DNA of 52,459 nt from UHGV virus genome UHGV-0060500. The stretch is one strand, 5' to 3'. The DNA comes from a virus. Below, piece after piece: positions 12,340 through 25,560 of the stretch. Made by a program: the position numbers and the translations under genes. How positions within the stretch are numbered: position 1 is the first letter of the stretch; each line of letters starts with the position of its first letter. The notes below the pieces were generated by a model. It did no database searches. It worked only from the letters and a program-made list of their open reading frames with translations, and was not told the DNA's origin.

Positions 12340-12618
12340 ATGGTTGATTATCTAAAACCGCCACCACCGCCACGAACAAAAGAGCAAGTATTAAAAGAAG
12401 CCCGTGATCAAATCGATCGCGGGCTTTTTTTATGCGGCACGGCAGCGGAACGGATGGCAAAAAGATTTAGTGACCTGTACGCAAAACAAATATGGTTCGA
12501 CAACTGGCAGGCAAGTTTTTATCCGCTGCAAAGAAAACCGGATATGCACTGGCCTGAATATGTCGATCCACGTATGCGCAAATATCGCGGGCGTATGGGC
12601 CAGGTCATTAACGATTAA
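12340..12618 (+). CDS. Hypothetical protein (92 aa)
   Basis: Plus-strand ORF in the tightly packed early operon. Confidence 0.4.
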   Translation: MVDYLKPPPPPRTKEQVLKEARDQIDRGLFLCGTAAERMAKRFSDLYAKQIWFDNWQASFYPLQRKPDMHWPEYVDPRMRKYRGRMGQVIND

Positions 12619-12630
12619 TGAGGTGTTATC

Positions 12631-12855
12631 ATGATTGAAGAAAAAGAAGTAGACAAGGAAATTCCTGACGGTTGTGATGAGCTTATTTGTTTTGACGGCG
12701 GCCTGTATGAGTTCGAAACGTCTGCAGGGTGGCACGATAAATGGCCTAAGCCTACTCGCCAGGAATTAAGCGACCGTAAATCATTCGGCGAAGATGCCGA
12801 ACGGCTGGCTAATAACAAATGGCTTGATAAGTTAATTGCGGAGGGTGGCAAATGA
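12631..12855 (+). CDS. Hypothetical protein (74 aa)
   Basis: ORF with coupled stop/start to the next gene. Confidence 0.4.
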   Translation: MIEEKEVDKEIPDGCDELICFDGGLYEFETSAGWHDKWPKPTRQELSDRKSFGEDAERLANNKWLDKLIAEGGK

Positions 12856-12965
12856 GCTTTGCAAAAATTGCCGCATTGCTTGCGGCTTTATCTATCGCCG
12901 TGCTGTATCTCAGTGTATCTCTTTATATCACGGTAGCGATCATTAAACTCATTACTAACATGTGA
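12852..12965 (+). CDS. Small membrane protein (37 aa)
   Basis: MSFAKIAALLAALSIAVLYLSVSLYITVAIIKLITNM; ATGA overlap with the upstream stop. Confidence 0.35.
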   Translation: MSFAKIAALLAALSIAVLYLSVSLYITVAIIKLITNM

Positions 12966-12973
12966 GGCCAATC

Positions 12974-13093
12974 ATGAAAGTCGGTAAGGATATTGTGACT
13001 GTCGCGTTTTGCATTATTTGCTTCCTGTTTGTGGTTGTTTCTTGTGGCGCATTTGCTGCGTTGGTTAGCTTTATTTTTAGAGGGTTGCCGTGA
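12974..13093 (+). CDS. Small membrane protein (39 aa)
   Basis: MKVGKDIVTVAFCIICFLFVVVSCGAFAALVSFIFRGLP; follows the previous small membrane ORF. Confidence 0.35.
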   Translation: MKVGKDIVTVAFCIICFLFVVVSCGAFAALVSFIFRGLP

Positions 13094-13365
13094 TGAAAAC
13101 ATGGGATGCAAAGGCTGGTGATCTTGTTGTGTTGCCTGAATATCGTGATGACCCTGGCCTGGTTGTACTGAATAAGATATATAACGATCTCGAGCGCCCG
13201 CTAGTGGTTAAATACCTGGACGGAACAATCATAGAACCGCGCTACTTTGATGAGATTGAACTAAAGGCCCACAATGTTCGCGTTAAGCCGTTCCGTGCTT
13301 ATGTTGAAAACCACTGGCGGAAATTGTTCGCCGGACTGAATGGGATGTTTGGCGTATGGCTATAA
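13093..13365 (+). CDS. Hypothetical protein (about 90 aa)
   Basis: ORF; ATG at 13093 preferred over the GTG at 13090. Confidence 0.4.
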   Translation: MKTWDAKAGDLVVLPEYRDDPGLVVLNKIYNDLERPLVVKYLDGTIIEPRYFDEIELKAHNVRVKPFRAYVENHWRKLFAGLNGMFGVWL

Positions 13366-13547
13366 AATTAGTGAAAGTTAAAGACCTGAAAGGCGGCGAA
13401 AAGATCCGCACGTGGTATGGCTATAAATTTATTGTCGCTGCCTTTTCTTTCGGGTCAGGGGGTCAAGTAACATTATTTGATGAAGAAGACGACGAGGTGG
13501 GTAAATGGCATCTTGAACAATATGTTGAGGTGTTAAATGAAAATTAA
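13356..13547 (+). CDS. Hypothetical protein (63 aa)
   Basis: ORF in operon. Confidence 0.35.
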   Translation: MAIKLVKVKDLKGGEKIRTWYGYKFIVAAFSFGSGGQVTLFDEEDDEVGKWHLEQYVEVLNEN

Positions 13548-13869
13548 ATTACATAAGGCCTATGATAGCGAAACAAATAAGCTATCACTATTTATTGAGT
13601 TCGAACGCCGGATCGTGTGTGTACCGTGGGCGCGTCGCTTTAATGATGCAGCAGGGCGGCGACAGTTCGCGTTAGACATGTTGTTGCGCGGTTGCGGCCT
13701 TATGCGCCCGCTATCTGATTTAAAACGGATGATGCCGGGATCGTTCGGTCAGATTGATGAAATAGAAATAAGCCCGGAAGAACTGAAACGTGAGCGTGAT
13801 TTATTCCTTTCAAGCGAAGGAAACCCGTTTAATTCAGAAACTGAAATGAAATGGCATCATCCACTATAA
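13537..13869 (+). CDS. Hypothetical protein (110 aa)
   Basis: ORF in operon. Confidence 0.4.
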   Translation: MKIKLHKAYDSETNKLSLFIEFERRIVCVPWARRFNDAAGRRQFALDMLLRGCGLMRPLSDLKRMMPGSFGQIDEIEISPEELKRERDLFLSSEGNPFNSETEMKWHHPL

Positions 13870-14501
13870 GGGTAAATATTATGAACAATATCAAAACGGC
13901 TTATTCACTCGGCAGCGAAGGCATGTTAATTACTCGCTACACAGAGGACGCGAGCTTTCACGAAGTGGTAACTAAGGATTATCACGAAGTTTTAAAAGAT
14001 ATGGAAGCAGGAGTGTATGACAGTGACTTAAATCTGGCGCTACAGATTGTTGATATTATGATGGATGCATCAATCCGCGATTACGTGTCTTTAAGCATGG
14101 AAGAAAAAACATCGGTAGCGCGTTATGTGTTCTGCCTCACTTTCGTAAGACGCATGGAGGAGGAATTCGGACGCGCACCAGTGCCGGAAGATGTTGATCC
14201 GCTCGCGTTCGGAAGTGCTGTTATTTTCCCGTTGAACAAGGATCGGCTTGGCAGTGTTTCACTGCATTCTATGCGCGCCCTGATGAAAAAGGTCTTTGAG
14301 GTTAAGATGTTGCAGAAATTTATTGAGGAAGGACACGAAGAAGTGAACGTTAAGGCGTTTATTCCGGTGCTTTACGGAAATTTTGTTGGCGATGATATGC
14401 GCGCTAATGAATTAGGCGTACAGGCGGCTATAGCTACGCTTAACGAAGCAATGAAAAGTGCACAGCCTATTCATGAACAGGAAAAACGTGTACTGCATTA
14501 A
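13851..14501 (+). CDS. Hypothetical protein (about 200 aa; start uncertain, possibly 13881)
   Basis: Long ORF, no motif recognised. Confidence 0.45.
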   Translation: MASSTIRVNIMNNIKTAYSLGSEGMLITRYTEDASFHEVVTKDYHEVLKDMEAGVYDSDLNLALQIVDIMMDASIRDYVSLSMEEKTSVARYVFCLTFVRRMEEEFGRAPVPEDVDPLAFGSAVIFPLNKDRLGSVSLHSMRALMKKVFEVKMLQKFIEEGHEEVNVKAFIPVLYGNFVGDDMRANELGVQAAIATLNEAMKSAQPIHEQEKRVLH

Positions 14502-14543
14502 CAGCGTGATTGCGATCACATAAATATACATTTTGTATTGTGA

Positions 14544-14819
14544 TTGCATATCCGTTTTGTAAGCCGAAATCAAAAGGTTTACGGTGCGGAGGAAGCAAAA
14601 ATGGAACGCGAATTGATGCTTTATTGCGTAGAAGGTGGCGTAGGTCACGATGCCTACGTCGCCGGGAAAGGCTATCCAGCCGATGAAGTGCTTTCTAATA
14701 TGCACTTCAGAGAAAATGAAAGCCAGGTGTCTGTGTGGAAACGGTGCATTGATGGTATTGAAGTTGTAAGTATCGAGCGGTATTTAGGCACGTTTGATTA
14801 CGGTGTTATTGAGGCTTAA
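14544..14819 (+). CDS. Hypothetical protein (start possibly 14601)
   Basis: ORF after an intergenic region carrying repeat motifs. Confidence 0.35.
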   Translation: MHIRFVSRNQKVYGAEEAKMERELMLYCVEGGVGHDAYVAGKGYPADEVLSNMHFRENESQVSVWKRCIDGIEVVSIERYLGTFDYGVIEA

Positions 14820-14917
14820 TTATGGACGATACATTGTTTTATATGTGCTGTTGCTGGGGTTTTATTGCTTTATGCCTGTTTATCAGGTGGTTTATTGAAT
14901 ACCATATGAGGTGATTT

Positions 14918-15109
14918 ATGAAATGCGTTGCATATTACAGGCTACCGGATAACGCCAAGTTAGCTGGGATCGGTCAATTTGGCTGTTATTACTATAACTC
15001 AATCGGTGATATTTACTTTGTAAATATTGTTGGTGGTGTGCAGCATTTTCGCTTGATGACTTGCACATTAAAAGAACTAAAACAGGCGGTAAAAATGTAT
15101 GAAGTATAA
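14918..15109 (+). CDS. Hypothetical protein (63 aa)
   Basis: ORF. Confidence 0.35.
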   Translation: MKCVAYYRLPDNAKLAGIGQFGCYYYNSIGDIYFVNIVGGVQHFRLMTCTLKELKQAVKMYEV

Positions 15110-15302
15110 ACGCTATAAAGAATGGAAAATACCGGAATCAGCAACAAAAGCAGCGCCAGGAAATTATTCTGGCGTTTACTTTTTTATGGATGGCAAATGG
15201 TATTTCGGCAGCAGGCCAGATCGCTATTATCAGGAAATATGCAAGCCTCACGTATGGGATATTAAAGAGCGCGTGAAAGGCGGGGTAATTGAGGACGTTT
15301 AA
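15099..15302 (+). CDS. Hypothetical protein (67 aa)
   Basis: ORF. Confidence 0.35.
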   Translation: MKYKRYKEWKIPESATKAAPGNYSGVYFFMDGKWYFGSRPDRYYQEICKPHVWDIKERVKGGVIEDV

Positions 15303-15303
15303 A

Positions 15304-15540
15304 ATGCTTAAGAGCTTTTTTAACTGGTTGGGGGCGTGGCTTTTGGCTACGCTTTTTGTTTTACTGGCGGCCCTGACTGTTATCGGTGTTATTATGCTGG
15401 GGGCTATGTTTATTACGTGGTCGCTTCCTGAATTTAACGACATTGGGAATATTCTTTTTGCAGCCCGCGCTTTATTGGCTGTTAGCGCATTCATTGGTTT
15501 TTGCTGGACTGCCGCGCCTGATTGGGCTGACACATGGTGA
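15304..15540 (+). CDS. Small membrane protein (about 78 aa, two predicted TM helices)
   Basis: MLKSFFNWLGAWLLATLFVLLAALTVIGVIMLGAMF...; SD GAGGACG. Confidence 0.4.
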   Translation: MLKSFFNWLGAWLLATLFVLLAALTVIGVIMLGAMFITWSLPEFNDIGNILFAARALLAVSAFIGFCWTAAPDWADTW

Positions 15541-15544
15541 TCCT

Positions 15545-15778
15545 ATGGCTTTATTCAATATGTCAGAGCCGCAATTTAACGCCGTAAAGACTGCCGCCCG
15601 CGCCGCGCTTTCGGCCTGCAAAGCGGAGGTAGAGAAGAACGGCTACAGCGATAAAGCCACGCGGCTGATATTAGACAAGCATTATCGCAAGGTCGCCCCG
15701 CTAATCAGTATTGAGCGTTTTGTGTGGTTGGTGGGGTATCTGAATAACCGCTGGGGAACAGATCAGGATTATTTCTAA
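15545..15778 (+). CDS. Hypothetical protein (about 77 aa)
   Basis: ORF; internal ATG start chosen to avoid a long overlap. Confidence 0.3.
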   Translation: MALFNMSEPQFNAVKTAARAALSACKAEVEKNGYSDKATRLILDKHYRKVAPLISIERFVWLVGYLNNRWGTDQDYF

Positions 15779-15787
15779 GGGGGCGTA

Positions 15788-16327
15788 ATGAAAAATGATT
15801 ACGGCGGCAGCCATACGCCGAAAGAAATAAAGGACTTATGGCAAACGCCAAAACCCGTTTTTAGAGGAATGGATCGTGAATTCGAATTCGTCGCGGACGT
15901 GGCGGCAAACAAGGCAAACGCATTAATCCCGCGATATATAACCGAAGAAATGGACACGCTGCATTATCCGTGGGGAGCGGTGGCAATGCCTGGTGAGTAT
16001 GTCTGGCTTAATCCGCCATATTCGAATCCGGGGCCATTCGTTGATAAGGCAGCGATGGAACATCACCGAAATCATATTGGCTGTGTAATGTTGTTGCCCG
16101 CTGATATCTCTGTTGGCTGGTTTATGAACGGCGTGGAGACGGCAAACGAATGCCGATTAATCACGCGCGGGCGGCTGGCGTTTATCAATGCTGCGACAGG
16201 GAAACCAGCAAGCGGAAACAATAAGGGTAGCTTGTTTTTGATCTGGCATCCACGGTGCAGACATGAATGTATTTTCACGCAGATAACACGTAAAGAGCTA
16301 TATGCAAGAGGTGCAGAAAATGAGTAA
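15788..16327 (+). CDS. dam: Phage DNA N6-adenine methyltransferase (Dam-like)
   Basis: 179 aa; catalytic NPPY motif (VWLNPPYSNPG) and overall pattern of the phage N-6-adenine methyltransferase family. Confidence 0.75.
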   Translation: MKNDYGGSHTPKEIKDLWQTPKPVFRGMDREFEFVADVAANKANALIPRYITEEMDTLHYPWGAVAMPGEYVWLNPPYSNPGPFVDKAAMEHHRNHIGCVMLLPADISVGWFMNGVETANECRLITRGRLAFINAATGKPASGNNKGSLFLIWHPRCRHECIFTQITRKELYARGAENE

Positions 16328-16832
16328 AGCGGCTGAATTGCTAAGACTTGCGGCTGAAACTATTGAGGCAAGAGGGGAACAAAACGGATACGATCGAAAA
16401 GAAGAAAAATCAGCGCCAAAAGTAGCGGCTATTTTCAACGCTAAGATGAATGCAAATTTAACCCCGCTTGATGTATGGGATCTACTAATTTGTCTCAAGG
16501 AAGCGCGTTTAGGGGCTATTTTAAGCAATGGTAGCGACCCGCTCGATACTCTTATAGACCTTATTGCTTATAACGCGCTAAAAGCGGAGCAAATATTAAC
16601 GGAGCGGGAGGAAGAGCAAAAGAAAAAACAGGGCGTTTTTGATCTCCCTATCGGTGGATTGAAGAAAACTTTTGCTGACCTTGCCGGACCAGAACCATCT
16701 ATTGTACCGGGGACAATCCCACCTGTGATGTTTAACGGTGGTGAGATTACTAATCGGCTTGATGTGAAGTTTGACAACGAATCGCTATTACGCGCGGCGG
16801 GGTATCATAAAAATGGAAAGGGTGACAATTGA
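16320..16832 (+). CDS. Hypothetical protein (about 170 aa)
   Basis: ORF between the two methyltransferase genes; SD GAGGTG before the ATG at 16320. Confidence 0.4.
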   Translation: MSKAAELLRLAAETIEARGEQNGYDRKEEKSAPKVAAIFNAKMNANLTPLDVWDLLICLKEARLGAILSNGSDPLDTLIDLIAYNALKAEQILTEREEEQKKKQGVFDLPIGGLKKTFADLAGPEPSIVPGTIPPVMFNGGEITNRLDVKFDNESLLRAAGYHKNGKGDN

Positions 16833-17316
16833 TAGGTTATTAGCCTGCGTTTATGTCGCCGTTTTTGTGATCATCAATCTTATTGTTAATCATTGCGGCC
16901 CGTGGGTAATTCCGATCACCACGGTAGCCGCCGTGTGTGTCAATATGATGATCCGTGACCTCCTGTTATATGACGGCGGCCTGAAATGGTCGGCTACAAC
17001 ATGCGCCGCCGCTGGCGCAATCACGGTGCTGATAAATTACGACGCCGGGATGGTGGCGATCGCGTCATTCGTCGCGGTTGTTTCCGGTGCGCTTATTTCT
17101 GGCGGCGTTTACCGGGTTTTGCCTGGTGGCTTTGATTCTAAACGTTGGCCTGCAAATATAGCGTCCGCCATTGGTGATGCGTTAATTTTTCCTACGCTAT
17201 CGTTTATGGCGTTTATGCCGGAAATATCAGCTATGCAATTCATCTCAAAAATGGCAGCGGTAACGGTGATTACTATCATCATGCGACGCTACTTCACGTT
17301 TGAGGGTAGAAAATGA
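16771..17316 (+). CDS. Multi-pass membrane protein, tentatively VUT/YhhQ-like (queuosine-precursor transporter family); start possibly 16813
   Basis: 4-5 predicted TM helices; loose resemblance to YhhQ segments (PANIASAIGDALIFPTLSFMAF versus YhhQ PTASTLFGNVSDTLAFFFIAF as recalled); assignment is tentative. Confidence 0.35.
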   Translation: MTTNRYYARRGIIKMERVTIDRLLACVYVAVFVIINLIVNHCGPWVIPITTVAAVCVNMMIRDLLLYDGGLKWSATTCAAAGAITVLINYDAGMVAIASFVAVVSGALISGGVYRVLPGGFDSKRWPANIASAIGDALIFPTLSFMAFMPEISAMQFISKMAAVTVITIIMRRYFTFEGRK

Positions 17317-18095
17317 GCAGGGCTAAACATTGGTTAAATAATTGGCTTAGAAGTTGGGTGGTGTGGTCGCTGTACGACGGCAGCGGGTACGCCGTTAAAG
17401 ATTGGGCGGAAGCAGGATATAAGTGCTATTGCTTCAACTATGACGGCGCAAATCACGGCGATTATGAAGGCGTTAAAATCATTCATCCAAATATTGAATA
17501 CGTTAACGTATGGATTGACAACCATTTCCTGGTAATGTTCTCCCCTGAATTGTCTGTTTATCCAGAGCCTGACATTATCTTGGGCTTTCCTCCGTGTGAT
17601 GATCTTGCCGTGTCCGGCGCTCGTTGGTTCGCTGACAAGCGGAAGAAAGATCCTCACTTCCAGCAAAAAGCAGCGTACAACGCAAAGTTAGTAGAAACGC
17701 TGGCGAGTATGTATAACGTCCCGTGGATGGTGGAAAATCCGGTGGGCGCACTGTCAACGCTATGGCGTAAACCGGATTTTATCTTCAATCCGTGCGCTTA
17801 CGGTGGCTACCTGCCGGAAGATGACAAACATCCTGCTTTCCCGGATGTTTACCCGCCGCGCGACGCGTATACGAAGAAAACTTGTATTTGGTGCGGCAAC
17901 GGATTTAAGCAGCCTCTTTTTAGGCCTGTAGATCTTAACTCTGGTGATAACCCTGGGTGGGCGAAAACCGGAGGCAGGACGAAACGAACAAAGATGATCC
18001 GCTCACTAACACCGCGTGGCTTTGCCCGTGCTGTATTCCTGGCTAACGACCGGGCCATCACGCGGACTACGCTTAACCGCGTTTTACCGGACTAA
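17313..18095 (+). CDS. DNA cytosine-5 methyltransferase-like protein (short)
   Basis: 260 aa; motif I-like LYDGSGY, motif IV-like GFPPCDDLAVSG (PC catalytic dipeptide), motif VI-like VENPVG. Confidence 0.55.
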   Translation: MSRAKHWLNNWLRSWVVWSLYDGSGYAVKDWAEAGYKCYCFNYDGANHGDYEGVKIIHPNIEYVNVWIDNHFLVMFSPELSVYPEPDIILGFPPCDDLAVSGARWFADKRKKDPHFQQKAAYNAKLVETLASMYNVPWMVENPVGALSTLWRKPDFIFNPCAYGGYLPEDDKHPAFPDVYPPRDAYTKKTCIWCGNGFKQPLFRPVDLNSGDNPGWAKTGGRTKRTKMIRSLTPRGFARAVFLANDRAITRTTLNRVLPD

Positions 18096-20362: not shown

Positions 20363-20565
20363 TGGATAAGTTAGAAATAAACGATCAGTTTGCCGTTATC
20401 TTGTTCGAAGATAAAACAGGCGGCGCATGGTGTAAGAAAGTCACTGGCGCAGAAGCGCGTTTGGTGTTGGGTATGGCAAGCGCGTTAAATGAAGGTGAAT
20501 TGCCAGCCGTACCTATTGAGCCTGTTCACATTTACGGGAGGAATAGAGAAGATGAAAATAATTAA
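20362..20565 (+). CDS. Hypothetical protein (67 aa)
   Basis: ORF. Confidence 0.35.
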   Translation: MDKLEINDQFAVILFEDKTGGAWCKKVTGAEARLVLGMASALNEGELPAVPIEPVHIYGRNREDENN

Positions 20566-20899
20566 TATCGGGTGGTTATATTGCAAAAACTGCGACGACG
20601 ACGGCATGGTTGTTAAGACTGAAAAAGGTTGCGGCTTCTTTTTGTATCAAGGCGATAAGTTTGTTTGTCCGCGATGCGGTGGTCATGGTGAGATAGAAAT
20701 TATTGAAGATAATGCTACAGCACCAGAGCCGGAGCGCATTGTTCTTGACGAAAAAATAAAAATTCATCCTGATTTATTGCAGCAAATTATCGATCACATA
20801 TCGGCAGCAGCAATCTATGCAGATAATAATTATCATCGTGAAATGAACGTAAAACGTGTTCTTGAGCAGTATTTCGAGGGTGGTGATAATGAAGCCTAA
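20552..20899 (+). CDS. Small zinc-ribbon protein (about 115 aa)
   Basis: CKNCDDDG...CPRCGGHG pair of CxxC motifs; SD GGGAGG. Confidence 0.4.
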   Translation: MKIINIGWLYCKNCDDDGMVVKTEKGCGFFLYQGDKFVCPRCGGHGEIEIIEDNATAPEPERIVLDEKIKIHPDLLQQIIDHISAAAIYADNNYHREMNVKRVLEQYFEGGDNEA

Positions 20900-21158
20900 A
20901 TTAAAAGAACATGAATTTAGGGATCTTGTAAACGGAATAACTGATAAGACCAGGACGTACTCAAATACACAACAATTAAGGGCGATGATAATTACGGAAT
21001 TAAGGAAATACATTGAGCCAGGCGGGCCAGGCGACGAAATGACTATGGACAAGGCCATCAAGCGCCGTTCGGCTGATTGGTCAGTCAGTAACACTGGATT
21101 AACCGGATACATCGAAGGCTATAACGACTGTTTACAGGATCATAGCAATGGCAAATAA
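20889..21158 (+). CDS. Hypothetical protein (about 89 aa)
   Basis: ORF; SD GAGGGTGGTGA. Confidence 0.35.
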   Translation: MKPKLKEHEFRDLVNGITDKTRTYSNTQQLRAMIITELRKYIEPGGPGDEMTMDKAIKRRSADWSVSNTGLTGYIEGYNDCLQDHSNGK

Positions 21159-21447
21159 ACACTTACATTTAAATTTAAAAGGGGAATACTTTCACGCTAT
21201 CCGGGCGGGAAAGAAGGTGGAGGAATACCGGCTTTATAATGACTATTGGCGTAAACGCCTGGAAGGGCGGGAATACACAAGATTAATCATCAAATGGGGA
21301 TACCCGGCTAACGACGAGAAGGAACGAATACTGATTCTTCCTTATATGGGGTACACAATCAAGACAATTCAGCATCCTTTATTTGGTGACGATCCTGTTA
21401 AAGTTTTTGCTATCAAATGCGATATTTATTGGCAATATAGGTTTTAG
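21148..21447 (+). CDS. ASCH/DUF3850-like PUA-fold protein
   Basis: HLNLKGEYFHAIRAGKKVEEYRLYNDYW...LIIKWGY resembles ASCH-domain proteins. Confidence 0.4.
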   Translation: MANKHLHLNLKGEYFHAIRAGKKVEEYRLYNDYWRKRLEGREYTRLIIKWGYPANDEKERILILPYMGYTIKTIQHPLFGDDPVKVFAIKCDIYWQYRF

Positions 21448-21450
21448 AAT

Positions 21451-21663
21451 ATGAAAAGTAACCGTAAACGCCTTGTAAGGGCATACGACAAAGCATTAAA
21501 GGCTTTTGATGATCTGCGACGCAATAAGCGCCAGCGCCGCAAATGGGCGCGAATGCTTGTTAGTGAATGGCATAACGAAGATTTCTTTCTGGAAGCGCGG
21601 CACATGACGCAAGAAGACGCGGATCAATTAGCTTACGATAACGTTTACTATATGATGTGGTGA
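21451..21663 (+). CDS. Hypothetical protein (70 aa)
   Basis: ORF. Confidence 0.35.
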   Translation: MKSNRKRLVRAYDKALKAFDDLRRNKRQRRKWARMLVSEWHNEDFFLEARHMTQEDADQLAYDNVYYMMW

Positions 21664-21667
21664 TAAT

Positions 21668-22033
21668 ATGCAGATAATCATTGATTACCTTTGCCACGCT
21701 GCAAATACAATTTTCGGTATGTATCAACAACCGTTTCTCAAAGAATGGGATGATATGCTAAACGACATCCTCGACAAAGGATTAATAATGGAGGTTGACG
21801 AGCTTACAATCAGATTTAATTATGAAGGTGAAGAATATCTAATTTGGGTGGGTAATAGATGGTATTCATACGGTCATATTTATTCAATTGGTGGTAAGTT
21901 CATTAAAAGAAACCAGGAATTCAGACCGCGCTTCCGCACTATGCGCCGCCTGCATGATCTGCATATAAAGCTATTCGAAGATCAGGAAGCGCGGGAATTA
22001 TTCAAAATTTACGGGGATAAATCATGGAGCTAA
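21668..22033 (+). CDS. Hypothetical protein (121 aa)
   Basis: ORF. Confidence 0.4.
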   Translation: MQIIIDYLCHAANTIFGMYQQPFLKEWDDMLNDILDKGLIMEVDELTIRFNYEGEEYLIWVGNRWYSYGHIYSIGGKFIKRNQEFRPRFRTMRRLHDLHIKLFEDQEARELFKIYGDKSWS

Positions 22034-22254
22034 AAATCTGGCAGGCTATCGACGTTGTTGATAACGAATTGTCTATGTTCGCCACTAACGGGAAACGCGT
22101 TGTGATCGCTACATGGACACGTAACCATGATGATATTGCTTTTCGTCGCGCTGCGGCGGAATTGCTTTTCTCTGATGGCGGCTACACGATGAACATCGCA
22201 CAGCTTGCCAGAATGAAAGATGAAAAGCTGGTGGACAGCTACACAACTGCGTAA
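22024..22254 (+). CDS. Hypothetical protein (76 aa)
   Basis: ORF. Confidence 0.35.
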   Translation: MELKIWQAIDVVDNELSMFATNGKRVVIATWTRNHDDIAFRRAAAELLFSDGGYTMNIAQLARMKDEKLVDSYTTA

Positions 22255-22264
22255 CGGGGTAAAT

Positions 22265-22498
22265 ATGCGTATCTATGAACACAAGCGGGATAAAACCCGC
22301 TTTTTTGTTCGTGCTGGCGTGGCGTACCAGTATCACGAATGCGGTTACATTGAGGCGCTAGCCTACGATCTGGATTTCGAACAGGAAAAAGCATGGTTCG
22401 ATTTTAAAATTTACCGGAAGCGCAAACCAACGCGCGACGAGCGACACGCTATCCGTGACTTTTTAATCAGTATTGAGCGCTGGGAGACAGAGGAATGA
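22265..22498 (+). CDS. Hypothetical protein (about 77 aa)
   Basis: ORF. Confidence 0.35.
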   Translation: MRIYEHKRDKTRFFVRAGVAYQYHECGYIEALAYDLDFEQEKAWFDFKIYRKRKPTRDERHAIRDFLISIERWETEE

Positions 22499-22722
22499 AG
22501 GTAAAATTCTTGCACGATCACGGTTATCCGTCACTGAAACAGGTTGTTGGTAAGGTGGTTAATGTCGTTCATGGCGATGATGTCACTTGCATGATTAACG
22601 GTGCTGATTTAATCGCCGCTGGCGCTGATGGCCATTACATAAATCCGGCATGGTCGTATACGTTCAGCCTGGGCGACTTCGTTGGCGATAAGGGGCGCGG
22701 GCTGGAAGTAGTCGAGGGTTAA
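22495..22722 (+). CDS. Hypothetical protein (75 aa)
   Basis: ORF. Confidence 0.35.
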   Translation: MKVKFLHDHGYPSLKQVVGKVVNVVHGDDVTCMINGADLIAAGADGHYINPAWSYTFSLGDFVGDKGRGLEVVEG

Positions 22723-22726
22723 CATC

Positions 22727-22975
22727 ATGGACGTTTACGAAGATCTATACCTCCAGACAAACACCCGCACTTTTTATTTTCTGAAAAACGGCGTCGTATA
22801 TCGCAGCGACGACGGGGTAATAATGAAGGAGTGGTTATTTAAGCGTAAAGACCTACTCGACGATTTGGTTTTTGCCGGAATATTTCGTAAACGTCCGGCT
22901 AACCTGGAAGAAGAAATGTTGATTGAGGTTATTAAAAATGAAAATCAGGGTAAGTTATTTCCGGGCGAAAGATAA
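22727..22975 (+). CDS. Hypothetical protein (82 aa)
   Basis: ORF. Confidence 0.35.
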   Translation: MDVYEDLYLQTNTRTFYFLKNGVVYRSDDGVIMKEWLFKRKDLLDDLVFAGIFRKRPANLEEEMLIEVIKNENQGKLFPGER

Positions 22976-23189
22976 GGCAACAGGAAAGCAGATGGCGATC
23001 CTGGTTAACGAGGCCAATTACATGTTTGTGCTTCAGCCGTGGTGTATAGCTGACTATAACGATGATTATCGCCGTCACGCGGCGCGGAGTGCGGTCGGGA
23101 TGAAAGGGTGGCAACCGCGCGACATGGAAAATTATTGCGACTGGAAACTGATTGCTAAATATACGGTTAATTATAAAGGGGTTTTCTGA
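22938..23189 (+). CDS. Hypothetical protein (about 83 aa)
   Basis: ORF; SD GAGGT. Confidence 0.35.
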   Translation: MKIRVSYFRAKDKATGKQMAILVNEANYMFVLQPWCIADYNDDYRRHAARSAVGMKGWQPRDMENYCDWKLIAKYTVNYKGVF

Positions 23190-23191
23190 TT

Positions 23192-23407
23192 ATGTTTGCA
23201 AGATGTGTTTATTCTGACACTACGTGCTTTACTACTGGCGAACTATATAGCGTTGATCTTCTTAATGGGTGCAAGCGCGGCGCTGGCCGGATTTATTATG
23301 TAAAAGATAATGATGGTGATGCGTGGCAATTTTACGGCGAGCATGCGAAAGGGGTTGTTAAGAGTAGTTTTGATAATCGTGTAATGGCGCATTTTGTTAA
23401 GTGGTGA
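23192..23407 (+). CDS. Hypothetical protein (71 aa)
   Basis: ORF. Confidence 0.35.
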   Translation: MFARCVYSDTTCFTTGELYSVDLLNGCKRGAGRIYYVKDNDGDAWQFYGEHAKGVVKSSFDNRVMAHFVKW

Positions 23408-23521: not shown

Positions 23522-23662
23522 ATGAACGCAAACGCAAAATATCCTGCCTGGGTGTTTGAGTTATATGCCAGATACTTCGAACTACTGGCACCAGGTGAAG
23601 AAGCATTAAGCATTGACGAATACGCGGAGTGTCTGGGGTTCAAAGGAGGCAAAGAAGGATAA
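23522..23662 (+). CDS. Hypothetical small protein (46 aa)
   Basis: ATG with SD GACGGAGGGG upstream. Confidence 0.3.
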   Translation: MNANAKYPAWVFELYARYFELLAPGEEALSIDEYAECLGFKGGKEG

Positions 23663-23706
23663 AGCACGGGGTCGGATGGCCCCCATCAAACCAGAAGGGT
23701 TGAATT

Positions 23707-24006
23707 ATGAAAAGCGATAAATTCATAGCGTGCTGTTTTGTTGAAGTGCCTAAAGGTGATGTTTTCTGTAATTACGAATTTAAAGACAGTTTAGGCCGAT
23801 CTCATGTTGTTGTTGGTAAGCGCGGTGACTGGTTATATATAACAGACGACGACATGATTTTTACCAGAAATCAACTATTTCACATCAACTCGGTAAATAA
23901 TTATGCGCCAGTTGCCGCTATATCCATGATGGATCTTAAATCTAATATGTGGCTTGAAAAGGACACTGTGCATAAAGCGCGTAGCTTACCTGGTGCGGAG
24001 TTTTAA
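23707..24006 (+). CDS. Hypothetical protein (99 aa)
   Basis: ORF. Confidence 0.4.
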   Translation: MKSDKFIACCFVEVPKGDVFCNYEFKDSLGRSHVVVGKRGDWLYITDDDMIFTRNQLFHINSVNNYAPVAAISMMDLKSNMWLEKDTVHKARSLPGAEF

Positions 24007-24008
24007 TT

Positions 24009-24266
24009 ATGGTTGTGTTCAGGCTGTGGCGCGGCAATAGCATACTCGATGGCGAGTACAGCCGCGTGATTGAAGATGTTAATCGCGGGCGTTTTTATGA
24101 ACTGGCATACAGGGAGGCAATGGAGAACACCTATTTTGATGAGTCAATCCCTATGTGGCGGAAGATGTCTGGCGAAATAGCTTTCGCAATGCGCCACGGG
24201 TTTTATACAGATCATAACACGCTAATTGATGCCGAACTGGTGACAATTCTTTACGAAGGAGAATAA
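24009..24266 (+). CDS. Hypothetical protein (85 aa)
   Basis: ORF. Confidence 0.35.
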   Translation: MVVFRLWRGNSILDGEYSRVIEDVNRGRFYELAYREAMENTYFDESIPMWRKMSGEIAFAMRHGFYTDHNTLIDAELVTILYEGE

Positions 24267-24269
24267 CAA

Positions 24270-24593
24270 ATGTCTAAATTTATCAGCGTTAAGGTTTTCC
24301 GTGGCACTATTCCAGAAGATAAAAAATATGGACAATTCGCCGGACAACCTGGCGCATGTTTCCGTGTAGCCACTGACGACGAAGTTAGTGTCAAATGCTT
24401 CCATGTAGCTGAACCGCCTTTTGACGTGAAAGACCTTGATAATGCAGATCACGTTAAACATTTTGTTTTCGCATCGGTAGTGCTTAATCCTTGCCCTGAT
24501 GCTGAAGTGGAATTGCTTGGGGCTGAACTGGTTGCAGAATACCAAATGACTGAAGGAGAAAACGGAGGGATTGAAATTGAGCGCATCAAGTAA
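24270..24593 (+). CDS. Hypothetical protein (107 aa)
   Basis: ORF. Confidence 0.4.
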   Translation: MSKFISVKVFRGTIPEDKKYGQFAGQPGACFRVATDDEVSVKCFHVAEPPFDVKDLDNADHVKHFVFASVVLNPCPDAEVELLGAELVAEYQMTEGENGGIEIERIK

Positions 24594-24822
24594 GCTATAC
24601 AAGATCAGGTGTAAAGGCGAATATCCTGGCTTTACGATTGGTTGCGAATACATGGGCCACATTGGGTACGGCCCTTTCGGTGAATTAGGGATGAATACGC
24701 TGGACGACGACGGCGACAGCAGGACGCTTGATCTTGATTCTGATGATTTCGAATACATCCCGCCGATAACTTACCGCGACGTTGATGATTTCATGGCTGA
24801 ACATGACGACGAGGACGATTAA
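24571..24822 (+). CDS. Hypothetical acidic protein (83 aa)
   Basis: ORF with Asp-rich C-terminus. Confidence 0.35.
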   Translation: MKLSASSKLYKIRCKGEYPGFTIGCEYMGHIGYGPFGELGMNTLDDDGDSRTLDLDSDDFEYIPPITYRDVDDFMAEHDDEDD

Positions 24823-24954
24823 ATGGAAGAGTGGTATAAAAATTTATTAATCATGTTTCTTTCTGAAAATTGGGCGCTATTTGAGCGTTTTTGCGAGGAA
24901 CATGGTGAAGACCCTAACGATATTTATCACGATCTTGGTGGTGAAGATGACTGA
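24823..24954 (+). CDS. Hypothetical small protein (43 aa)
   Basis: ATG immediately after the upstream stop. Confidence 0.3.
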   Translation: MEEWYKNLLIMFLSENWALFERFCEEHGEDPNDIYHDLGGEDD

Positions 24955-25144
24955 ATGCCTTATTGTTGCGGTAGTTATAATTTACCTGGCTGGTGTCATT
25001 TTAATGGGCGCTTTTCAGAAGGCTGTTGATAGTGACGGCGTTATTTGGTTCGAGCTAGTCTTCTGGCCTTTCATTACGATATACGCATTCAGTGATGCTA
25101 TGCGTATTAACATCATGCGAGCCATTAAGGAGCGCAAAAAATGA
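24947..25144 (+). CDS. Small membrane protein (about 65 aa)
   Basis: MTECLIVAVVIIYLAGVILMGAF...; two hydrophobic helices. Confidence 0.35.
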   Translation: MTECLIVAVVIIYLAGVILMGAFQKAVDSDGVIWFELVFWPFITIYAFSDAMRINIMRAIKERKK

Positions 25145-25323
25145 TTGAAGATGGGGTGTACGCAGCAACAGTAGTCGACGGGTTGTTTTACCGCGTGGAA
25201 GGTGATGATATTCGTATCCGTGTTGGCGGTGGCGAGTGGGTAGCGCCAATCATTAAGACGACGCGAGAAACAATTAAAATATTTCTTGATGCTGGTGAAC
25301 TGGTAAAGGTTAGCGACCTATGA
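25141..25323 (+). CDS. Hypothetical protein (60 aa), paralogue of the next ORF
   Basis: MIEDGVYAATVVDGLFYRVEG... shares the IEDG.Y pattern with the ORF at 25320. Confidence 0.35.
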   Translation: MIEDGVYAATVVDGLFYRVEGDDIRIRVGGGEWVAPIIKTTRETIKIFLDAGELVKVSDL

Positions 25324-25496
25324 ACGAGATCGAAGATGGCATCTATTTGCATAAGGTATTTGACATCGCCTATTTGGTAAGAGGCGAAGAGGTGATGATA
25401 AGGAATGAAGATGTTCCTTATTGGGAATTAAGCGACATGGATCGCGAACACATGCAAACATTGCTTGATAACGGACTGATATACAGAACTGCGTAA
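25320..25496 (+). CDS. Hypothetical protein (58 aa), paralogue of the previous ORF
   Basis: MNEIEDGIYLHKVFDIAYLVRGEE...; ATGA overlap with the upstream stop. Confidence 0.35.
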   Translation: MNEIEDGIYLHKVFDIAYLVRGEEVMIRNEDVPYWELSDMDREHMQTLLDNGLIYRTA

Positions 25497-25560
25497 AGCC
25501 GTATTTGTGGGTCGAAAACAAACAGATTAAAATATTACCTAACAATGCGAAACTGTAACT

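What the first reader, a model, noticed from the sequence alone, without database searches (positions are those of the whole stretch)
12340..25500. About 13 kb block of roughly 40 tightly coupled small plus-strand ORFs of unknown function
Between ssb and the lysis cassette nearly every ORF is 40-120 codons, with overlapping stop/start codons and no recognisable motifs apart from Dam, C5-MTase-like, NinG, RusA, Q-like, ASCH-like and zinc-ribbon proteins. It includes paralogous pairs (25141-25323 and 25320-25496), Cys-rich proteins and small membrane proteins (12852-13093, 15304-15540, 24947-25144). Blocks like this often hold host-takeover and anti-defence genes, so it is a likely reservoir of uncharacterised functions.
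Basis: partly seen in the sequence, partly recalled or inferred. Interest (0 to 1): 0.45.

Follow-up and report, generated by a model that had tools for sequence, protein, structure and literature searches.

The report
Early accessory-gene operon of mEp021-like coliphage
This 13 kb stretch is the densely packed early-gene region of a temperate E. coli phage of the already described mEp021 (mEpimmI) group: 44 real, conserved, mostly tiny genes, about a dozen of which belong to known families and about thirty of which have no known function, so it is a genuine but ordinary pool of unstudied phage genes.

Summary
Window 12340-25496 carries 44 plus-strand genes (median 77.5 aa, 96% coding). Twenty-two junctions overlap and 17 have gaps of 15 nt or less. 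Forty-three of the first 45 candidate ORFs are under purifying selection across 49 related loci (pooled dN/dS 0.155, against 1.5-1.8 in shifted frames). Two candidates (18106-18219, 23428-23559) are not genes.

The window is a member of the published mEpimmI (mEp021-like) phage group, at 86-91% nucleotide identity and in synteny. It holds Abc2 anti-RecBCD, an Ipe orthologue, Dam, DUF6378, a VUT-like membrane protein, a protein with a C5-methyltransferase fold, NinG, RusA, a Q-lambda-family antiterminator, an ASCH protein and a virion protein orthologue. About 30 ORFs were found only in this phage group.

The array is not continuous. Three conserved non-coding elements (14502-14600, 18096-18254 with nutR2, 23408-23521) split it into four sub-blocks. 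Each repeats a pL-like module with a CRP-consensus palindrome.

A pR'-like promoter and terminator at 25497-25603 mark the right end, 5.1 kb downstream of Q. The anti-defence interpretation is plausible but untested. Verdict: a new member of a known kind, of modest interest.

The parts
12340..12618 (+). Abc2-like anti-RecBCD protein (92 aa). It sits directly after erf and ssb, completing a P22-type recombination module.
   Evidence: phrog_656 'abc2 anti-RecBCD', E 4e-31, full length. 94.5% identical to mEp021 gp21 'putative anti-RecBCD'. dN/dS 0.11. No Pfam hit.
12631..14501 (+). Sub-block 1: seven ORFs of 37-206 aa with no family assignment. Includes two single-helix peptides (12852-12965, 12974-13093), a homologue that PGAP names 'toxin-antitoxin toxin subunit' (13093-13365), and 13537-13869, which is a paralogue of 22024-22254.
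   Evidence: dN/dS 0.08-0.37 and present in 46-47 of 49 loci. Hydropathy. PGAP name only. For 13881-14501, 453 homologue clusters are all E. coli 'hypothetical'.
14502..14600 (+). Non-coding element A. Palindrome CGTGA-N6-TCACA at 14505-14520, then TTGTGA (14538-14543), 16 nt, then TAAGCC (14560-14565). A hairpin GCGATCACA...TGTGATCGC is also possible.
   Evidence: Aligns with pL, B and C with one gap. Conserved in 48 loci. Consensus hairpin with one compensatory pair (A-U to G-C in 2 sequences). Single-sequence fold z = -4.7.
14601..15540 (+). Five small ORFs: 14601-14819; the 30-aa membrane peptide 14822-14914; 14918-15109; DUF7274 at 15099-15302; and the two-helix membrane protein 15304-15540.
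   Evidence: dN/dS 0.14-0.49. PF23939 DUF7274, E 1.3e-5. Hydropathy.
15545..15778 (+). Orthologue of Ipe ('inducer of pleiotropic effects') of mEp021, 77 aa.
   Evidence: 94.8% identical to the mEp021 ipe gene product at the syntenic position. dN/dS 0.05. phrog_303. 30-47% identical homologues in many E. coli and Klebsiella siphophages. The published phenotype is cited in PMC11893012.
15788..16327 (+). Phage Dam-type N6-adenine DNA methyltransferase (179 aa, NPPY motif).
   Evidence: PF05869, E 5e-50. TIGR01712, E 1.7e-40. PADLOC 'orphan MTase', E 1e-22.
16320..16832 (+). DUF6378 protein (170 aa). The N-terminal domain is conserved; the C-terminal half is variable between relatives.
   Evidence: PF19905, E 2e-6. 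Only 32 of 49 loci cover 80% or more of it, with median identity 65%. N-terminal homologues in other coliphages.
16813..17316 (+). Membrane protein of 167 aa with five to six helices. A distant, short relative of the VUT (YhhQ-type) transporter family. One of the most conserved genes of the block.
   Evidence: Pfam Vut_1, E 0.18 over the full length. Six of 7 family members hit Vut_1, best E 5e-4. 36% identical to the 'putative VUT family protein' of phage Phleasolo, E 1e-18. Foldseek top viral hit is 'Putative vitamin uptake transporter', probability 0.97 (model pLDDT 67). dN/dS 0.05, median identity 97%.
17313..18095 (+). Short (260 aa) protein with a C5-cytosine DNA methyltransferase fold. 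Motif I is FDGSG, motif IV is PPC (Cys95) and motif VI is ENP.
   Evidence: phrog_757, E 2e-86. More than 7,700 homologue clusters, some with PF00145 or named DNA cytosine methyltransferase. Invariant G23 S24, P93 P94 C95, E141 N142 P143. Profile against PDB finds DNMT3B motifs I-IV, E 0.08. AF2 pLDDT 85.6. Foldseek finds DNMT3B/3A, E 7.6e-8. No Pfam hit on this protein itself.
18096..18254 (+). Non-coding element B. It contains a 15-bp conserved hairpin (18108-18143) around the palindrome CGTGA-N6-TCACA (18118-18133), followed by TTTT; this is the predicted terminator t4 of mEp021. Next comes TTGTTC (18151-18156), 16 nt, then TATACT (18173-18178). Then nutR2, with boxA TGCTCTTTAAAAA (18193-18205) and the boxB stem-loop (18213-18226).
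   Evidence: Alignment of 36 distinct sequences: stem invariant, loop variable, boxB with 4 compensatory G-U to C-G changes. mEp021 TERM_4 lies at the same place. The paper places nutR2 downstream of the methyltransferase gene. A 37-nt inverted similarity to the nutL region 9490-9526 and 17/17 identity to 10446-10462.
18255..18431 (+). Cys-rich 58-aa protein, labelled 'NinF' in the mEp021 record.
   Evidence: 91% identical to mEp021 gp34. dN/dS 0.27. No Pfam match at E 0.01 or better, so not confirmed as NinF.
18446..19455 (+). NinG (18446-19051) and the RusA Holliday-junction resolvase (19048-19455).
   Evidence: PF05766, E 1.5e-65. PF05866, E 1e-13. PDB 1q8r RusA, E 4e-30.
19452..20362 (+). 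A 60-aa ORF (19452-19634), then a Q-lambda-family late antiterminator (19634-20362, 242 aa) carrying four CxxCxGxG zinc motifs.
   Evidence: PDB 7ubm/4mo1 'Antitermination protein Q', E 8e-33 and 9e-20. PF03589, E 4e-28, and PF00684. phrog_127, E 4e-78.
20362..23407 (+). Sub-block 3b: twelve small ORFs between Q and element C. Includes a zinc-ribbon protein (20552-20899), an ASCH protein (21148-21447) and the orthologue of the mEp021 gp41 virion protein (22727-22975). 20362-22033 and 23192-23407 are absent from mEp021.
   Evidence: dN/dS 0.05-0.29. Presence and absence. ASCH homologues in Stx, P22-like and other phages. gp41 is 96% identical and was detected by mass spectrometry in virions according to PMC11893012.
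23408..23521 (+). Non-coding element C. Palindrome TGTGA-N6-TCACA (23427-23442), then a terminator-like hairpin GGCATTG/CAGTGCC (23456-23475) followed by GTTTTGTT. This overlaps TTGTTC (23460-23465), 16 nt, then TTATAT.
   Evidence: Fold z = -4.4. Present in 39 loci; the hairpin is conserved, while the second half of the palindrome is degenerate in many. ARNold terminator T8 of mEp010 lies at this position. Aligns with pL, A and B.
23522..25496 (+). Sub-block 4: nine small ORFs, the most variable part of the block. Includes an 81-83 aa protein with a strongly acidic tail (24571/24577-24822), an acidic 43-aa protein (24823-24954), a membrane protein (24947-25144) and the tandem paralogues 25141-25323 / 25320-25496.
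   Evidence: Present in 18-44 of 49 loci; dN/dS 0.04-0.40. Net charges and hydropathy. Paralogy.
25497..25603 (+). Right boundary: a candidate Q-dependent late promoter. TAAAAT (25528-25533), 7 nt, then the -10-like AACAAT (25541-25546). This is followed by the intrinsic terminator 25561-25579 plus a T-run (t5 of mEp021), then the holin RBS.
   Evidence: The strongest terminator in the scan. Nearly invariant in 31 distinct sequences, while the stem's loop and the upstream part vary. mEp021 TERM_5 and mEp010 T9 lie at the same place. The paper lists t5 as experimentally demonstrated. The promoter reading is inferred.

Best explanation
The block is the delayed-early accessory part of the rightward early operon of a temperate siphophage of the mEpimmI (mEp021-like) group.

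Shown here:
- It holds 44 genuine protein-coding genes on one strand, packed so that most stop and start codons overlap or nearly touch. This favours translation as polycistronic units.
- It is syntenic with mEp021, mEp010, MagusPhagus and dozens of E. coli prophages.

Shown in the literature for mEp021 and matched here by sequence:
- Transcription from the early right promoter is carried through terminators by the N-like protein Gp17 (93% identical here). Gp17 acts at nutR1, upstream of gp17, and at nutR2, which lies inside the block at about 18193-18226.
- A demonstrated terminator (t5, 25561-25579) closes the block.

Functional content:
- a recombination helper that disarms RecBCD (Abc2);
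- a DNA-modification cluster (Dam, DUF6378, a VUT-like membrane protein, a C5-methyltransferase-fold protein), which would protect progeny DNA from restriction;
- the toxic effector Ipe;
- a lambda-nin-like module (Cys-rich protein, NinG, RusA, Q);
- about 30 small lineage-restricted proteins, several of them membrane or strongly acidic. Their most likely role, by analogy only, is to modulate host processes and defences early in infection.

Inferred:
- Three conserved non-coding elements divide the operon into four sub-blocks. Each repeats the layout of the leftward early promoter pL: a TGTGA-N6-TCACA palindrome, 17-18 nt, a TTGnnn hexamer, 16 nt, then a -10-like hexamer. Each also contains hairpins that can act as terminators. 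I read them as terminator-plus-internal-promoter junctions (about 40% for the promoter part).
- The Q protein acts not next to its own gene but 5.1 kb downstream, at a pR'-like promoter and terminator just before the holin gene. All 21 ORFs between Q and the lysis cassette would then be early genes, not late genes (about 65%).
For: Identity of the phage: megablast gives 86-91% identity over 73-96% of the block to mEp010, MagusPhagus, mEp554/044/013/515/021 and 35 E. coli prophages. Gene order matches theirs. The group is described in PMC11893012.

Coding: conservation and dN/dS, with the frame-shift control.

Packing.

Families.

Antitermination: Gp17 is 93% identical, with its arginine-rich motif intact. 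boxA and boxB of nutR2 are conserved, with compensatory changes in boxB, at the position the paper gives. nutR2 resembles nutL in inverted orientation.

Internal elements:
- They are the only three gaps longer than 50 nt.
- They hold three of the six TGTGA-N6-TCACA matches in 52 kb, where 1.5 are expected.
- They align with pL and each other with a single gap.
- The core motif TCCRTTTTGTWWAC occurs 22 times against 3.4 expected.
- Outside the block, that motif sits upstream of genes in the matching orientation, including a divergent pair at 39556/39584.

Right boundary: a conserved promoter-like sequence plus terminator. Q belongs to the Q-lambda family. There is no intergenic space after Q, since 20362 is both the end of Q's stop codon and the first base of the next start codon.
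Against: No expression data exist for this window. Transcription start sites, promoter activity of A, B and C, CRP binding and the site of Q action are all inferred from sequence.

The -10-like hexamer of element A is poor here (TAAGCC) and has G at the critical second position in several relatives. The second palindrome half of element C is degenerate in many relatives. The consensus promoter scan did not flag A, B, C or pL, which score 8 of 12 or fewer. Hairpins in A, B and C are equally compatible with plain terminators.

The orthologue of 22727-22975 was found in purified mEp021 virions. This fits late expression better than early expression.

For about 30 ORFs there is no functional evidence of any kind.
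Confidence: 0.75

Rival explanations
1. The block is above all an anti-defence and host-takeover arsenal. On this view, most of the roughly 30 unassigned small proteins inhibit bacterial immune systems or shut off host functions.
For: An Abc2 anti-RecBCD homologue, two methyltransferases and the toxic Ipe orthologue are in the block. Several ORFs are very acidic (net charge -16 and -11 over 43 residues) or are small membrane proteins. The most variable cassettes (20362-22033, 23192-23662, 24270-25323) differ between close relatives, as counter-defence genes often do. Most ORFs are restricted to this phage group.
Against: No unassigned ORF matches any characterised anti-defence or takeover protein in PHROGs, Pfam, NCBIfam or PDB. 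PADLOC gives only the Dam hit and one weak restriction-enzyme-like hit, E 9e-5. Many of these ORFs are core genes with very low dN/dS (0.04-0.1), which does not look like an arms race. One is a virion component in mEp021.
Confidence: 0.3
2. The three internal elements are plain intrinsic terminators, analogous to lambda tR2-tR4 in the nin region. Their palindromes are only hairpin stems. There are no internal promoters and no CRP input, and the whole block is a single pR transcript that depends on Gp17.
For: B has a 15-bp invariant stem with a variable loop followed by TTTT, and it is annotated as a predicted terminator in mEp021. C has a GC-rich 7-bp stem followed by GTTTTGTT and is predicted as a terminator in mEp010. 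A shows a compensatory pair. nutR2 inside the block fits a need to reinforce antitermination.
Against: The pL copy shares the palindrome half-sites and spacing but cannot form the hairpin. What pL, A, B and C share is TGTGA/TCACA plus TTG plus CC(R)TTTTGT at fixed distances, not a stem. The core motif lies upstream of genes in the correct orientation at six other places in the genome. nutR2 lies right after the promoter-like part of B, just as nutL follows pL.
Confidence: 0.4
3. The 5 kb between Q and the lysis genes is a late or independently expressed 'moron' region, like the stx region downstream of Q in Stx phages. It would not be part of the early operon.
For: The orthologue of 22727-22975 is found in virions. 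Element C could supply its own promoter and terminator. This is the most variable part of the block.
Against: The first ORF starts on the last base of Q's stop codon, which leaves no room for a promoter. The only sequence resembling a lambda-type late promoter with a following terminator is downstream of these ORFs, at 25497-25603, and it is nearly invariant. GC content and GC skew are continuous with the upstream early genes.
Confidence: 0.2
4. Many of the small ORFs are chance reading frames in non-coding or regulatory DNA.
For: Only two candidates behave this way: 18106-18219 and 23428-23559.
Against: Forty-three of 43 remaining genes have their lowest dN/dS in the annotated frame. Pooled dN/dS is 0.155 against 1.48 and 1.76 in the shifted frames. 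Almost none of the orthologues contain stop codons.
Confidence: 0.02

Closest known systems
Early-right ('regulation/recombination') region of the mEpimmI phages (mEp021, mEp010, mEp013, mEp044, mEp515, mEp554; Negrete-Mendez et al. 2025, PMC11893012)
   Same: Same gene order from erf-ssb to holin, at 86-91% nucleotide identity. Same N-like Gp17 (93%), the same nutR2 position and sequence, and the same terminators t4 and t5. Ipe, gp21 (anti-RecBCD), gp32 (membrane protein), gp33 (methylase), Q and the gp41 virion protein all have orthologues.
   Different: This window carries 14 ORFs that mEp021 lacks (20362-22033, 23192-23662, 24270-25323). It is closest to mEp010 and to prophages such as the one in E. 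coli MLI107 (91%). The published work does not describe the repeated pL-like module, the CRP-like palindromes or the location of the late promoter. CRP is not mentioned in that paper at all. The 2023 antitermination paper could not be read.
nin region and delayed-early pR operon of phage lambda and lambdoid phages
   Same: A run of small, overlapping, mostly dispensable ORFs. It is transcribed from pR through internal terminators with the help of an N-type antiterminator, contains NinG and a junction resolvase, and ends with Q (own knowledge of lambda; families confirmed).
   Different: It is about four times larger (44 genes against about 10). It is preceded by recombination genes rather than replication genes. 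It has a second nut site inside the operon. Twenty-one ORFs lie between Q and the presumed late promoter. The protein labelled NinF does not match Pfam NinF. By the authors' phylogenomics the phage is not lambdoid.
P22 erf / abc1-abc2 recombination and anti-RecBCD module
   Same: Erf-family annealing protein (PF04404, E 7e-42), SSB, and an Abc2-family protein adjacent on one strand.
   Different: No Abc1 homologue was recognised. RecC binding is untested.
Class I CRP-dependent promoters (lac type, CRP site centred near -61.5; own knowledge)
   Same: TGTGA-N6-TCACA lies 17-18 nt upstream of a weak -35-like TTGnnn hexamer, with a 16-nt spacer to a -10-like hexamer, in pL and in elements A, B and C. 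This places the palindrome centre about 60-62 nt from the inferred start site.
   Different: No start site is mapped and no CRP binding has been shown. In B the palindrome is the core of a long hairpin, and in C its second half is not conserved. A phage-encoded binding protein is equally possible.

Membership tests
mEpimmI (mEp021-like) phage group | High nucleotide similarity and conserved gene order with the six described phages | tested here: met
   86-89% identity over 73-96% of the block to all six phages plus MagusPhagus. Orthologue positions are collinear in mEp021 and in 46 IMG/VR loci.
mEpimmI (mEp021-like) phage group | N-like antiterminator Gp17 with an arginine-rich motif, and three nut sites including nutR2 downstream of the cytosine methylase gene | tested here: met
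   Gp17 is 93% identical, with ARERRRIKRENER retained. boxA and boxB lie at 18193-18226, downstream of 17313-18095. A nutL-like inverted copy lies at 9490-9526.
mEpimmI (mEp021-like) phage group | CI-lambda-like repressor with an S24 autocleavage domain | tested here: met
   9691-10338: HTH_3, E 1.5e-12, plus Peptidase_S24, E 6e-19.
Lambdoid nin region | NinG, a junction resolvase and Q in that order at the end of the pR operon | tested here: met
   PF05766, PF05866 and PF03589 at 18446-20362.
Lambdoid nin region | NinF-family protein upstream of NinG | tested here: not met
   18255-18431 has no Pfam match at E 0.01 or better. Only the mEp021 record labels it NinF.
Lambdoid nin region | Located between the replication genes (O/P type) and Q; Q immediately followed by pR' | tested here: not met
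   The block follows erf-ssb, and no replication protein family was found in it. Q is followed without a gap by 21 more ORFs.
Q-lambda-type late antitermination | Q protein homologous to lambda Q | tested here: met
   PDB 7ubm chain Q, E 8e-33, and 4mo1, E 9e-20.
Q-lambda-type late antitermination | Late promoter with a -10-like pause element in the initially transcribed region, followed by a terminator upstream of the lysis genes | tested here: inconclusive
   TAAAAT, 7 nt, AACAAT and then the terminator 25561-25579, nearly invariant in 31 distinct sequences. The resemblance to lambda pR' (TAAATT ... AACGAT) is from memory. No start site or Q-binding element has been mapped.
Abc2 anti-RecBCD | Sequence membership in the Abc2 family | tested here: met
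   phrog_656, E 4e-31, residues 1-92 against profile positions 7-98 of 98.
Abc2 anti-RecBCD | Binds RecC and modifies RecBCD activity | not testable with these tools
   Needs biochemistry or a genetic assay.
C5-cytosine DNA methyltransferase | Catalytic motifs I (FxGxG), IV (PC) and VI (ENV) | tested here: met
   FDGSG, PPC (Cys95) and ENP are invariant or nearly so in 37 homologues. They align to DNMT3B motifs I-IV.
C5-cytosine DNA methyltransferase | Methyltransferase fold | tested here: met
   AF2 model pLDDT 85.6. Foldseek against DNMT3B/3A catalytic domains gives E 7.6e-8, probability 1.0, TM 0.4-0.5.
C5-cytosine DNA methyltransferase | Match to the Pfam DNA_methylase model (PF00145) at family threshold | tested here: not met
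   No Pfam family at E 1 or better for this protein. Only a few distant homologues carry a precomputed PF00145 hit. The protein is about 100 residues shorter than typical enzymes, so its target-recognition part is atypical.
VUT (YhhQ-type) transporter family | Match to Pfam Vut_1 at the gathering threshold | tested here: inconclusive
   12.6 bits against a cutoff of 27.2 for the window protein. Six of 7 relatives hit, best E 5e-4. 36% identity to an annotated phage VUT protein. Structural top hit has probability 0.97 but TM only 0.52, from a model of pLDDT 67.
Class I CRP-dependent promoter | CRP consensus half-sites TGTGA and TCACA separated by 6 bp | tested here: met
   14505-14520, 18118-18133 and 23427-23442 (0-1 mismatch), plus 9650-9665 at pL. 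Six matches in the window against 1.5 expected.
Class I CRP-dependent promoter | Site centred near -61.5 from a mapped start site; activation by cAMP-CRP | not testable with these tools
   The distance is inferred from -35-like and -10-like hexamers only.
Anti-defence gene island | Several genes homologous to experimentally validated anti-defence proteins | tested here: inconclusive
   Only Abc2 and the two methylases qualify. The tools hold no dedicated anti-defence library. PADLOC, a defence library, gave nothing relevant.

The most novel reading that the evidence does not exclude
The early accessory genes of this widespread gut coliphage group may not form one N-dependent transcript. They may instead be four units, each headed by a copy of the pL promoter module carrying a CRP-consensus site at about -61.5. 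One of these copies (element B) is followed by its own nut site. Expression of pL and of the accessory sub-blocks (methylases, Ipe, nin/Q and the variable ORFan cassettes) would then be wired to host cAMP-CRP, or to an unknown phage factor that binds the same palindrome. Some of these genes could also be expressed independently of pR. A 14-nt promoter-associated motif marks at least ten transcription units across the genome. None of this is mentioned in the accessible literature on these phages.
Probability: 0.3. Interest if true: 0.55.

Novelty: new member of a known kind. Interest (0 to 1): 0.3.

Why it matters
mEpimmI phages are reported to be as common as lambdoid phages in human faecal E. 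coli. Their early region is a compact set of about 30 conserved proteins with no known function, next to proven effectors (Ipe, Abc2-type). A verified gene list, with selection statistics, core-versus-variable status and proposed transcription units, makes a targeted toxicity and anti-defence screen practical.

If the repeated pL-like modules are real CRP-responsive promoters, they would give a direct molecular link between host nutritional state and early or accessory gene expression in a temperate phage. In lambda that link is known only phenotypically.

The 5 kb separation between Q and its presumed site is also an unusual layout for a Q-lambda-type system.

Tried and rejected
- Rfam scan of the whole window at gathering thresholds: no RNA family.
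- NCBIfam added only Dam and RusA.
- PADLOC found no defence system. It gave only the Dam orphan methylase and a weak restriction-enzyme-like hit on 25320-25496 (E 9e-5), which I do not trust.
- A PDB sequence search of all 43 proteins joined together found only Q and RusA.
- My first joined-protein Pfam scan used a Gly-Ser linker, which produced artefactual 'Serglycin' hits. I ignored these and changed the linker.
- A homologue search for 13881-14501 returned 453 clusters, all E. coli 'hypothetical'. This gave no functional lead.
- A homologue search for 16813-17316 found only 12 close clusters. The VUT link came from Pfam run on family members, from tblastn and from the fold search.
- The AlphaFold-database fold library was unavailable.
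- First pattern for the palindromes used the wrong spacer and missed them. I corrected this.
- I considered that the 14-nt motif might be the prophage repressor's operator or an L5-type 'stoperator'. I set this aside. The motif also heads genes outside the early region, in both orientations. The pL and pR regions share a different repeat (TGCRAGT / TTGACTCG...CGAGTCAA), seen by eye only.
- I considered module-boundary recombination sequences for A, B and C. This is not excluded but was not tested.
- The 2023 paper on Gp17 antitermination is not held.
- The exhaustive representative-protein search was not used.

Full report
**What the window is.** Megablast of 12340-25500 finds eight phage records. 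These are mEp010, MagusPhagus, mEp554, mEp044, mEp013, mEp515 and mEp021, the last represented by two records (its complete genome and a 1.45 kb fragment), at 85-89% identity. It also finds 35 E. coli chromosomes at up to 91%. These phages form the 'mEpimmI' group described in 2025: Nus-dependent, non-lambdoid temperate siphophages from human faeces. The group has 50-59 core genes, a CI-like repressor, an N-like antiterminator Gp17 that acts at nutR1, nutR2 and nutL, and a Q-like protein. In the window I confirmed the following:
- the repressor (HTH plus Peptidase_S24), ERF, SSB, holin, lysozyme and Rz by Pfam;
- Gp17 at 93% identity to mEp021.

**Are the ORFs real?** I tiled the plus strand into 45 candidate ORFs using start codons and ribosome-binding sites. 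I then fetched 46 related loci from IMG/VR with the Q protein as bait, plus three annotated phages. tblastn found orthologues of every candidate: in 42-49 of 49 loci for the core genes, and in 18-44 for the variable ones.
- Nei-Gojobori dN/dS, pooled over distinct orthologues, is 0.04-0.49 for 43 candidates.
- As a control, the same alignments read in the two shifted frames give 1.48 and 1.76, against 0.155 in frame. All 43 genes score lowest in their annotated frame.
- Two candidates fail (18106-18219 and 23428-23559, with dN/dS 0.69 and 0.97 and stops in orthologues). They lie in non-coding elements.
- Refinements: a 30-aa membrane peptide at 14822-14914 is under selection; the ORF ending at 24822 starts at 24571 or 24577; NinG starts at 18446.
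- The final model has 44 genes with a median of 77.5 aa, and 35 of them are 120 aa or shorter. Twenty-two junctions overlap and 17 have gaps of 0-15 nt. Coding density is 96%.

**What is assignable.** I followed up individual proteins.

| Coordinates | Assignment | Evidence |
|---|---|---|
| 12340-12618 | Abc2 anti-RecBCD | PHROG, E 4e-31 |
| 15099-15302 | DUF7274 | Pfam |
| 15545-15778 | Ipe orthologue | 94.8% identity to mEp021 Ipe; Ipe overexpression is reported to cause haemolysis and cell death |
| 15788-16327 | Dam | Pfam, NCBIfam |
| 16320-16832 | DUF6378 | Pfam |
| 16813-17316 | Distant, short VUT-family membrane protein | Pfam on 6 of 7 relatives; an annotated phage homologue at 36% identity; structural top hit |
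| 17313-18095 | C5-methyltransferase fold, motifs I, IV and VI | Fold and motifs confirmed, but below Pfam detection |
| 18446-19051 | NinG | Pfam |
| 19048-19455 | RusA | Pfam, PDB |
| 19634-20362 | Q-lambda-family protein with four DnaJ-type CxxCxGxG motifs | PDB 7ubm, E 8e-33 |
| 20552-20899 | Zinc ribbon | Weak DnaJ CXXCXGXG match |
| 21148-21447 | ASCH | Weak in Pfam; clear from 50-63% identical annotated homologues |
| 22727-22975 | Orthologue (96%) of mEp021 gp41, found by mass spectrometry in virions | |

The 'NinF' label of the mEp021 record for 18255-18431 is not supported by Pfam.

Paralogy is confirmed by profile-profile comparison for 25141-25323 / 25320-25496 (probability 95.6%) and for 13537-13869 / 22024-22254 (89.8%). 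Three unrelated control pairs scored about 1%.

**How restricted the rest is.** I ran tblastn of the 37 unassigned or weakly assigned proteins against 50,697 phage genomes. In the rows sampled across the ranking, homologues outside the mEpimmI group appeared only for:
- Ipe, the DUF6378 domain, the VUT-like protein and the ASCH protein;
- weakly, 20552-20899, 21451-21663 and 21668-22033.

About 30 ORFs therefore look group-specific. Within the group, three cassettes are variable and absent from mEp021: 20362-22033, 23192-23662 and 24270-25323.

**The array is not continuous.** Only three junctions exceed 50 nt: 14502-14600 (A), 18096-18254 (B) and 23408-23521 (C). Each contains a (T/C)GTGA-N6-TCACA palindrome. 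These are three of the six such matches in 52 kb, where 1.5 are expected.

The three elements align with each other and with the reverse complement of 9590-9672, the region upstream of nutL, with a single gap. They share:
- the palindrome;
- a TTGnnn hexamer 17-18 nt further on;
- CC(R)TTTTGT running into a -10-like hexamer 16 nt after the TTG hexamer.

B is followed at once by nutR2 (boxA 18193-18205, boxB 18213-18226, with compensatory changes in boxB), just as the pL copy is followed by nutL.

The 14-nt core TCCRTTTTGTWWAC occurs 22 times in the window against 3.4 expected. Outside the block it lies in intergenic DNA upstream of genes, in the matching orientation. Examples are back-to-back copies between the divergent genes ending at 39509 and starting at 39637, and copies before 42661, 44272, 51510 and 5367. 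This points to a promoter-associated motif.

The elements also contain hairpins:
- B has an invariant 15-bp stem with a variable loop followed by TTTT. This is the predicted terminator t4 of mEp021.
- C has a GC-rich stem followed by a T-run. This is predicted terminator T8 of mEp010.
- A has a conserved stem with one compensatory pair.

I therefore read A, B and C as terminator-plus-promoter junctions. I cannot exclude that they are only terminators. With the inferred hexamers, the palindrome centre falls about 60-62 nt upstream of the start site. That is the geometry of class I CRP-dependent promoters (own knowledge). This is an inference without any binding or start-site data. The -10-like hexamer of A and the second palindrome half of C are poorly conserved.

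**Right boundary and Q.** The next ORF starts on the last base of Q's stop codon, so no late promoter can sit there. The 107-nt gap before the holin gene contains TAAAAT, 7 nt, AACAAT, and then the strongest terminator of the region (25561-25579). In 31 distinct relatives these parts are almost invariant, while the terminator loop and the upstream part vary. mEp021's t5, listed as experimentally demonstrated, is this terminator. The layout resembles lambda pR' with its -10-like pause element and tR' (from memory), and the Q protein is of the lambda type. I therefore propose that Q acts here, 5.1 kb from its gene. The 21 ORFs in between would then belong to the early operon. The presence of the gp41 orthologue in virions is the main observation that does not fit easily.

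**Interpretation and verdict.** The block does contain an anti-RecBCD homologue, DNA-modification genes and a toxic effector, but for the remaining roughly 30 ORFs nothing beyond conservation can be shown with these tools. Many of them are core genes under strong purifying selection rather than fast-evolving ones.

The block as such is already present and annotated, mostly as 'hypothetical protein', in GenBank records of a described phage group. I therefore file it as a new member of a known kind, with modest interest.

The parts that appear unreported in the literature I could read are:
- the repeated pL-like module with CRP-consensus palindromes;
- the promoter-associated 14-nt motif;
- the distant placement of the presumed Q site;
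- the VUT-like membrane protein embedded between the two methylases.

Noticed in passing
window-wide; copies with at most 1 mismatch at 5384(-), 9605(-), 9982(-), 10448(-), 14551(+), 18097(-), 18164(+), 39556(-), 42172(+), 42563(+), 44156(+), 51629(-): The 14-nt motif TCCRTTTTGTWWAC occurs 22 times (2 mismatches or fewer) against 3.4 +/- 1.8 expected. Most strong copies lie in intergenic DNA upstream of a gene on the same strand, including a divergent pair at 39556/39584. It looks like a phage-specific promoter signature or a regulator binding site.
   Followed up: partly
window 10446-10462 (minus strand), next to the pR -35 TTGACT at 10462-10467: A 17/17 identical copy of the element-B core (ATCCATTTTGTATACTT) points leftward, back to back with the early right promoter. 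It faces the 3' end of the repressor gene and the bidirectional-looking terminator at 10344-10361. It could drive a short antisense or regulatory RNA.
   Followed up: no
window 9640-9693: Upstream of the repressor gene: TTGCAT (9656-9661), 17 nt, TAGGGT, and then ATG at 9691 a few bases later. This suggests a leaderless repressor mRNA, as for lambda cI. The CRP-like palindrome 9650-9665 overlaps this -35-like hexamer and lies about 61 nt upstream of the inferred pL start on the other strand.
   Followed up: no
window 10462-10498 and 9575-9665: An inverted repeat TTGACTCG ... CGAGTCAA brackets the pR core promoter. A related heptamer TGCAAGT / ACTTGCA occurs three times around pL. These are candidate repressor operators, seen by eye only.
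   Followed up: no
window 15788-18095: The two methylase genes enclose a DUF6378 protein and a strongly conserved VUT-like (queuosine-precursor-transporter family) membrane protein, with dN/dS 0.05 and 97% median identity. No deazaguanine-insertion enzyme was seen in the block, so the role of a transporter-like protein here is unexplained.
   Followed up: partly
window 24691-24954: Two adjacent, extremely acidic stretches: the C-terminal 43 residues of 24571-24822 (net charge -16) and the 43-aa protein 24823-24954 (net charge -11). This composition is reminiscent of DNA-mimic proteins. There is no homology evidence.
   Followed up: no
window 25320-25496: Weak PADLOC match (E 9e-5, 19.6 bits) of this 58-aa paralogue to the C-terminal end of a Type II restriction-enzyme model. 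Probably spurious.
   Followed up: no
window 19634-20362: The Q-lambda-family protein matches lambda Q in two pieces (query residues about 1-114 and 150-240) and carries four CxxCxGxG motifs of the DnaJ zinc-centre type. It is 35 residues longer than lambda Q.
   Followed up: partly
window 9490-9526 versus 18194-18230: A 37-nt inverted repeat (78% complementary) links the nutL region and nutR2. This agrees with the published remark that these two nut sites are the most similar pair.
   Followed up: partly
window 7001-8000 and 51001-52000: These are the lowest-GC kilobases of the window (0.34 and 0.40, against about 0.46). They may be recently acquired cargo genes at the left arm and the right end of the prophage.
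   Followed up: no
window 39598-39616, 44238-44253, 51591-51606: Further TGTGATCTGTGT-type half or full palindromes lie next to copies of the 14-nt motif in the late/tail region, but at different relative positions than in the early region.
   Followed up: partly
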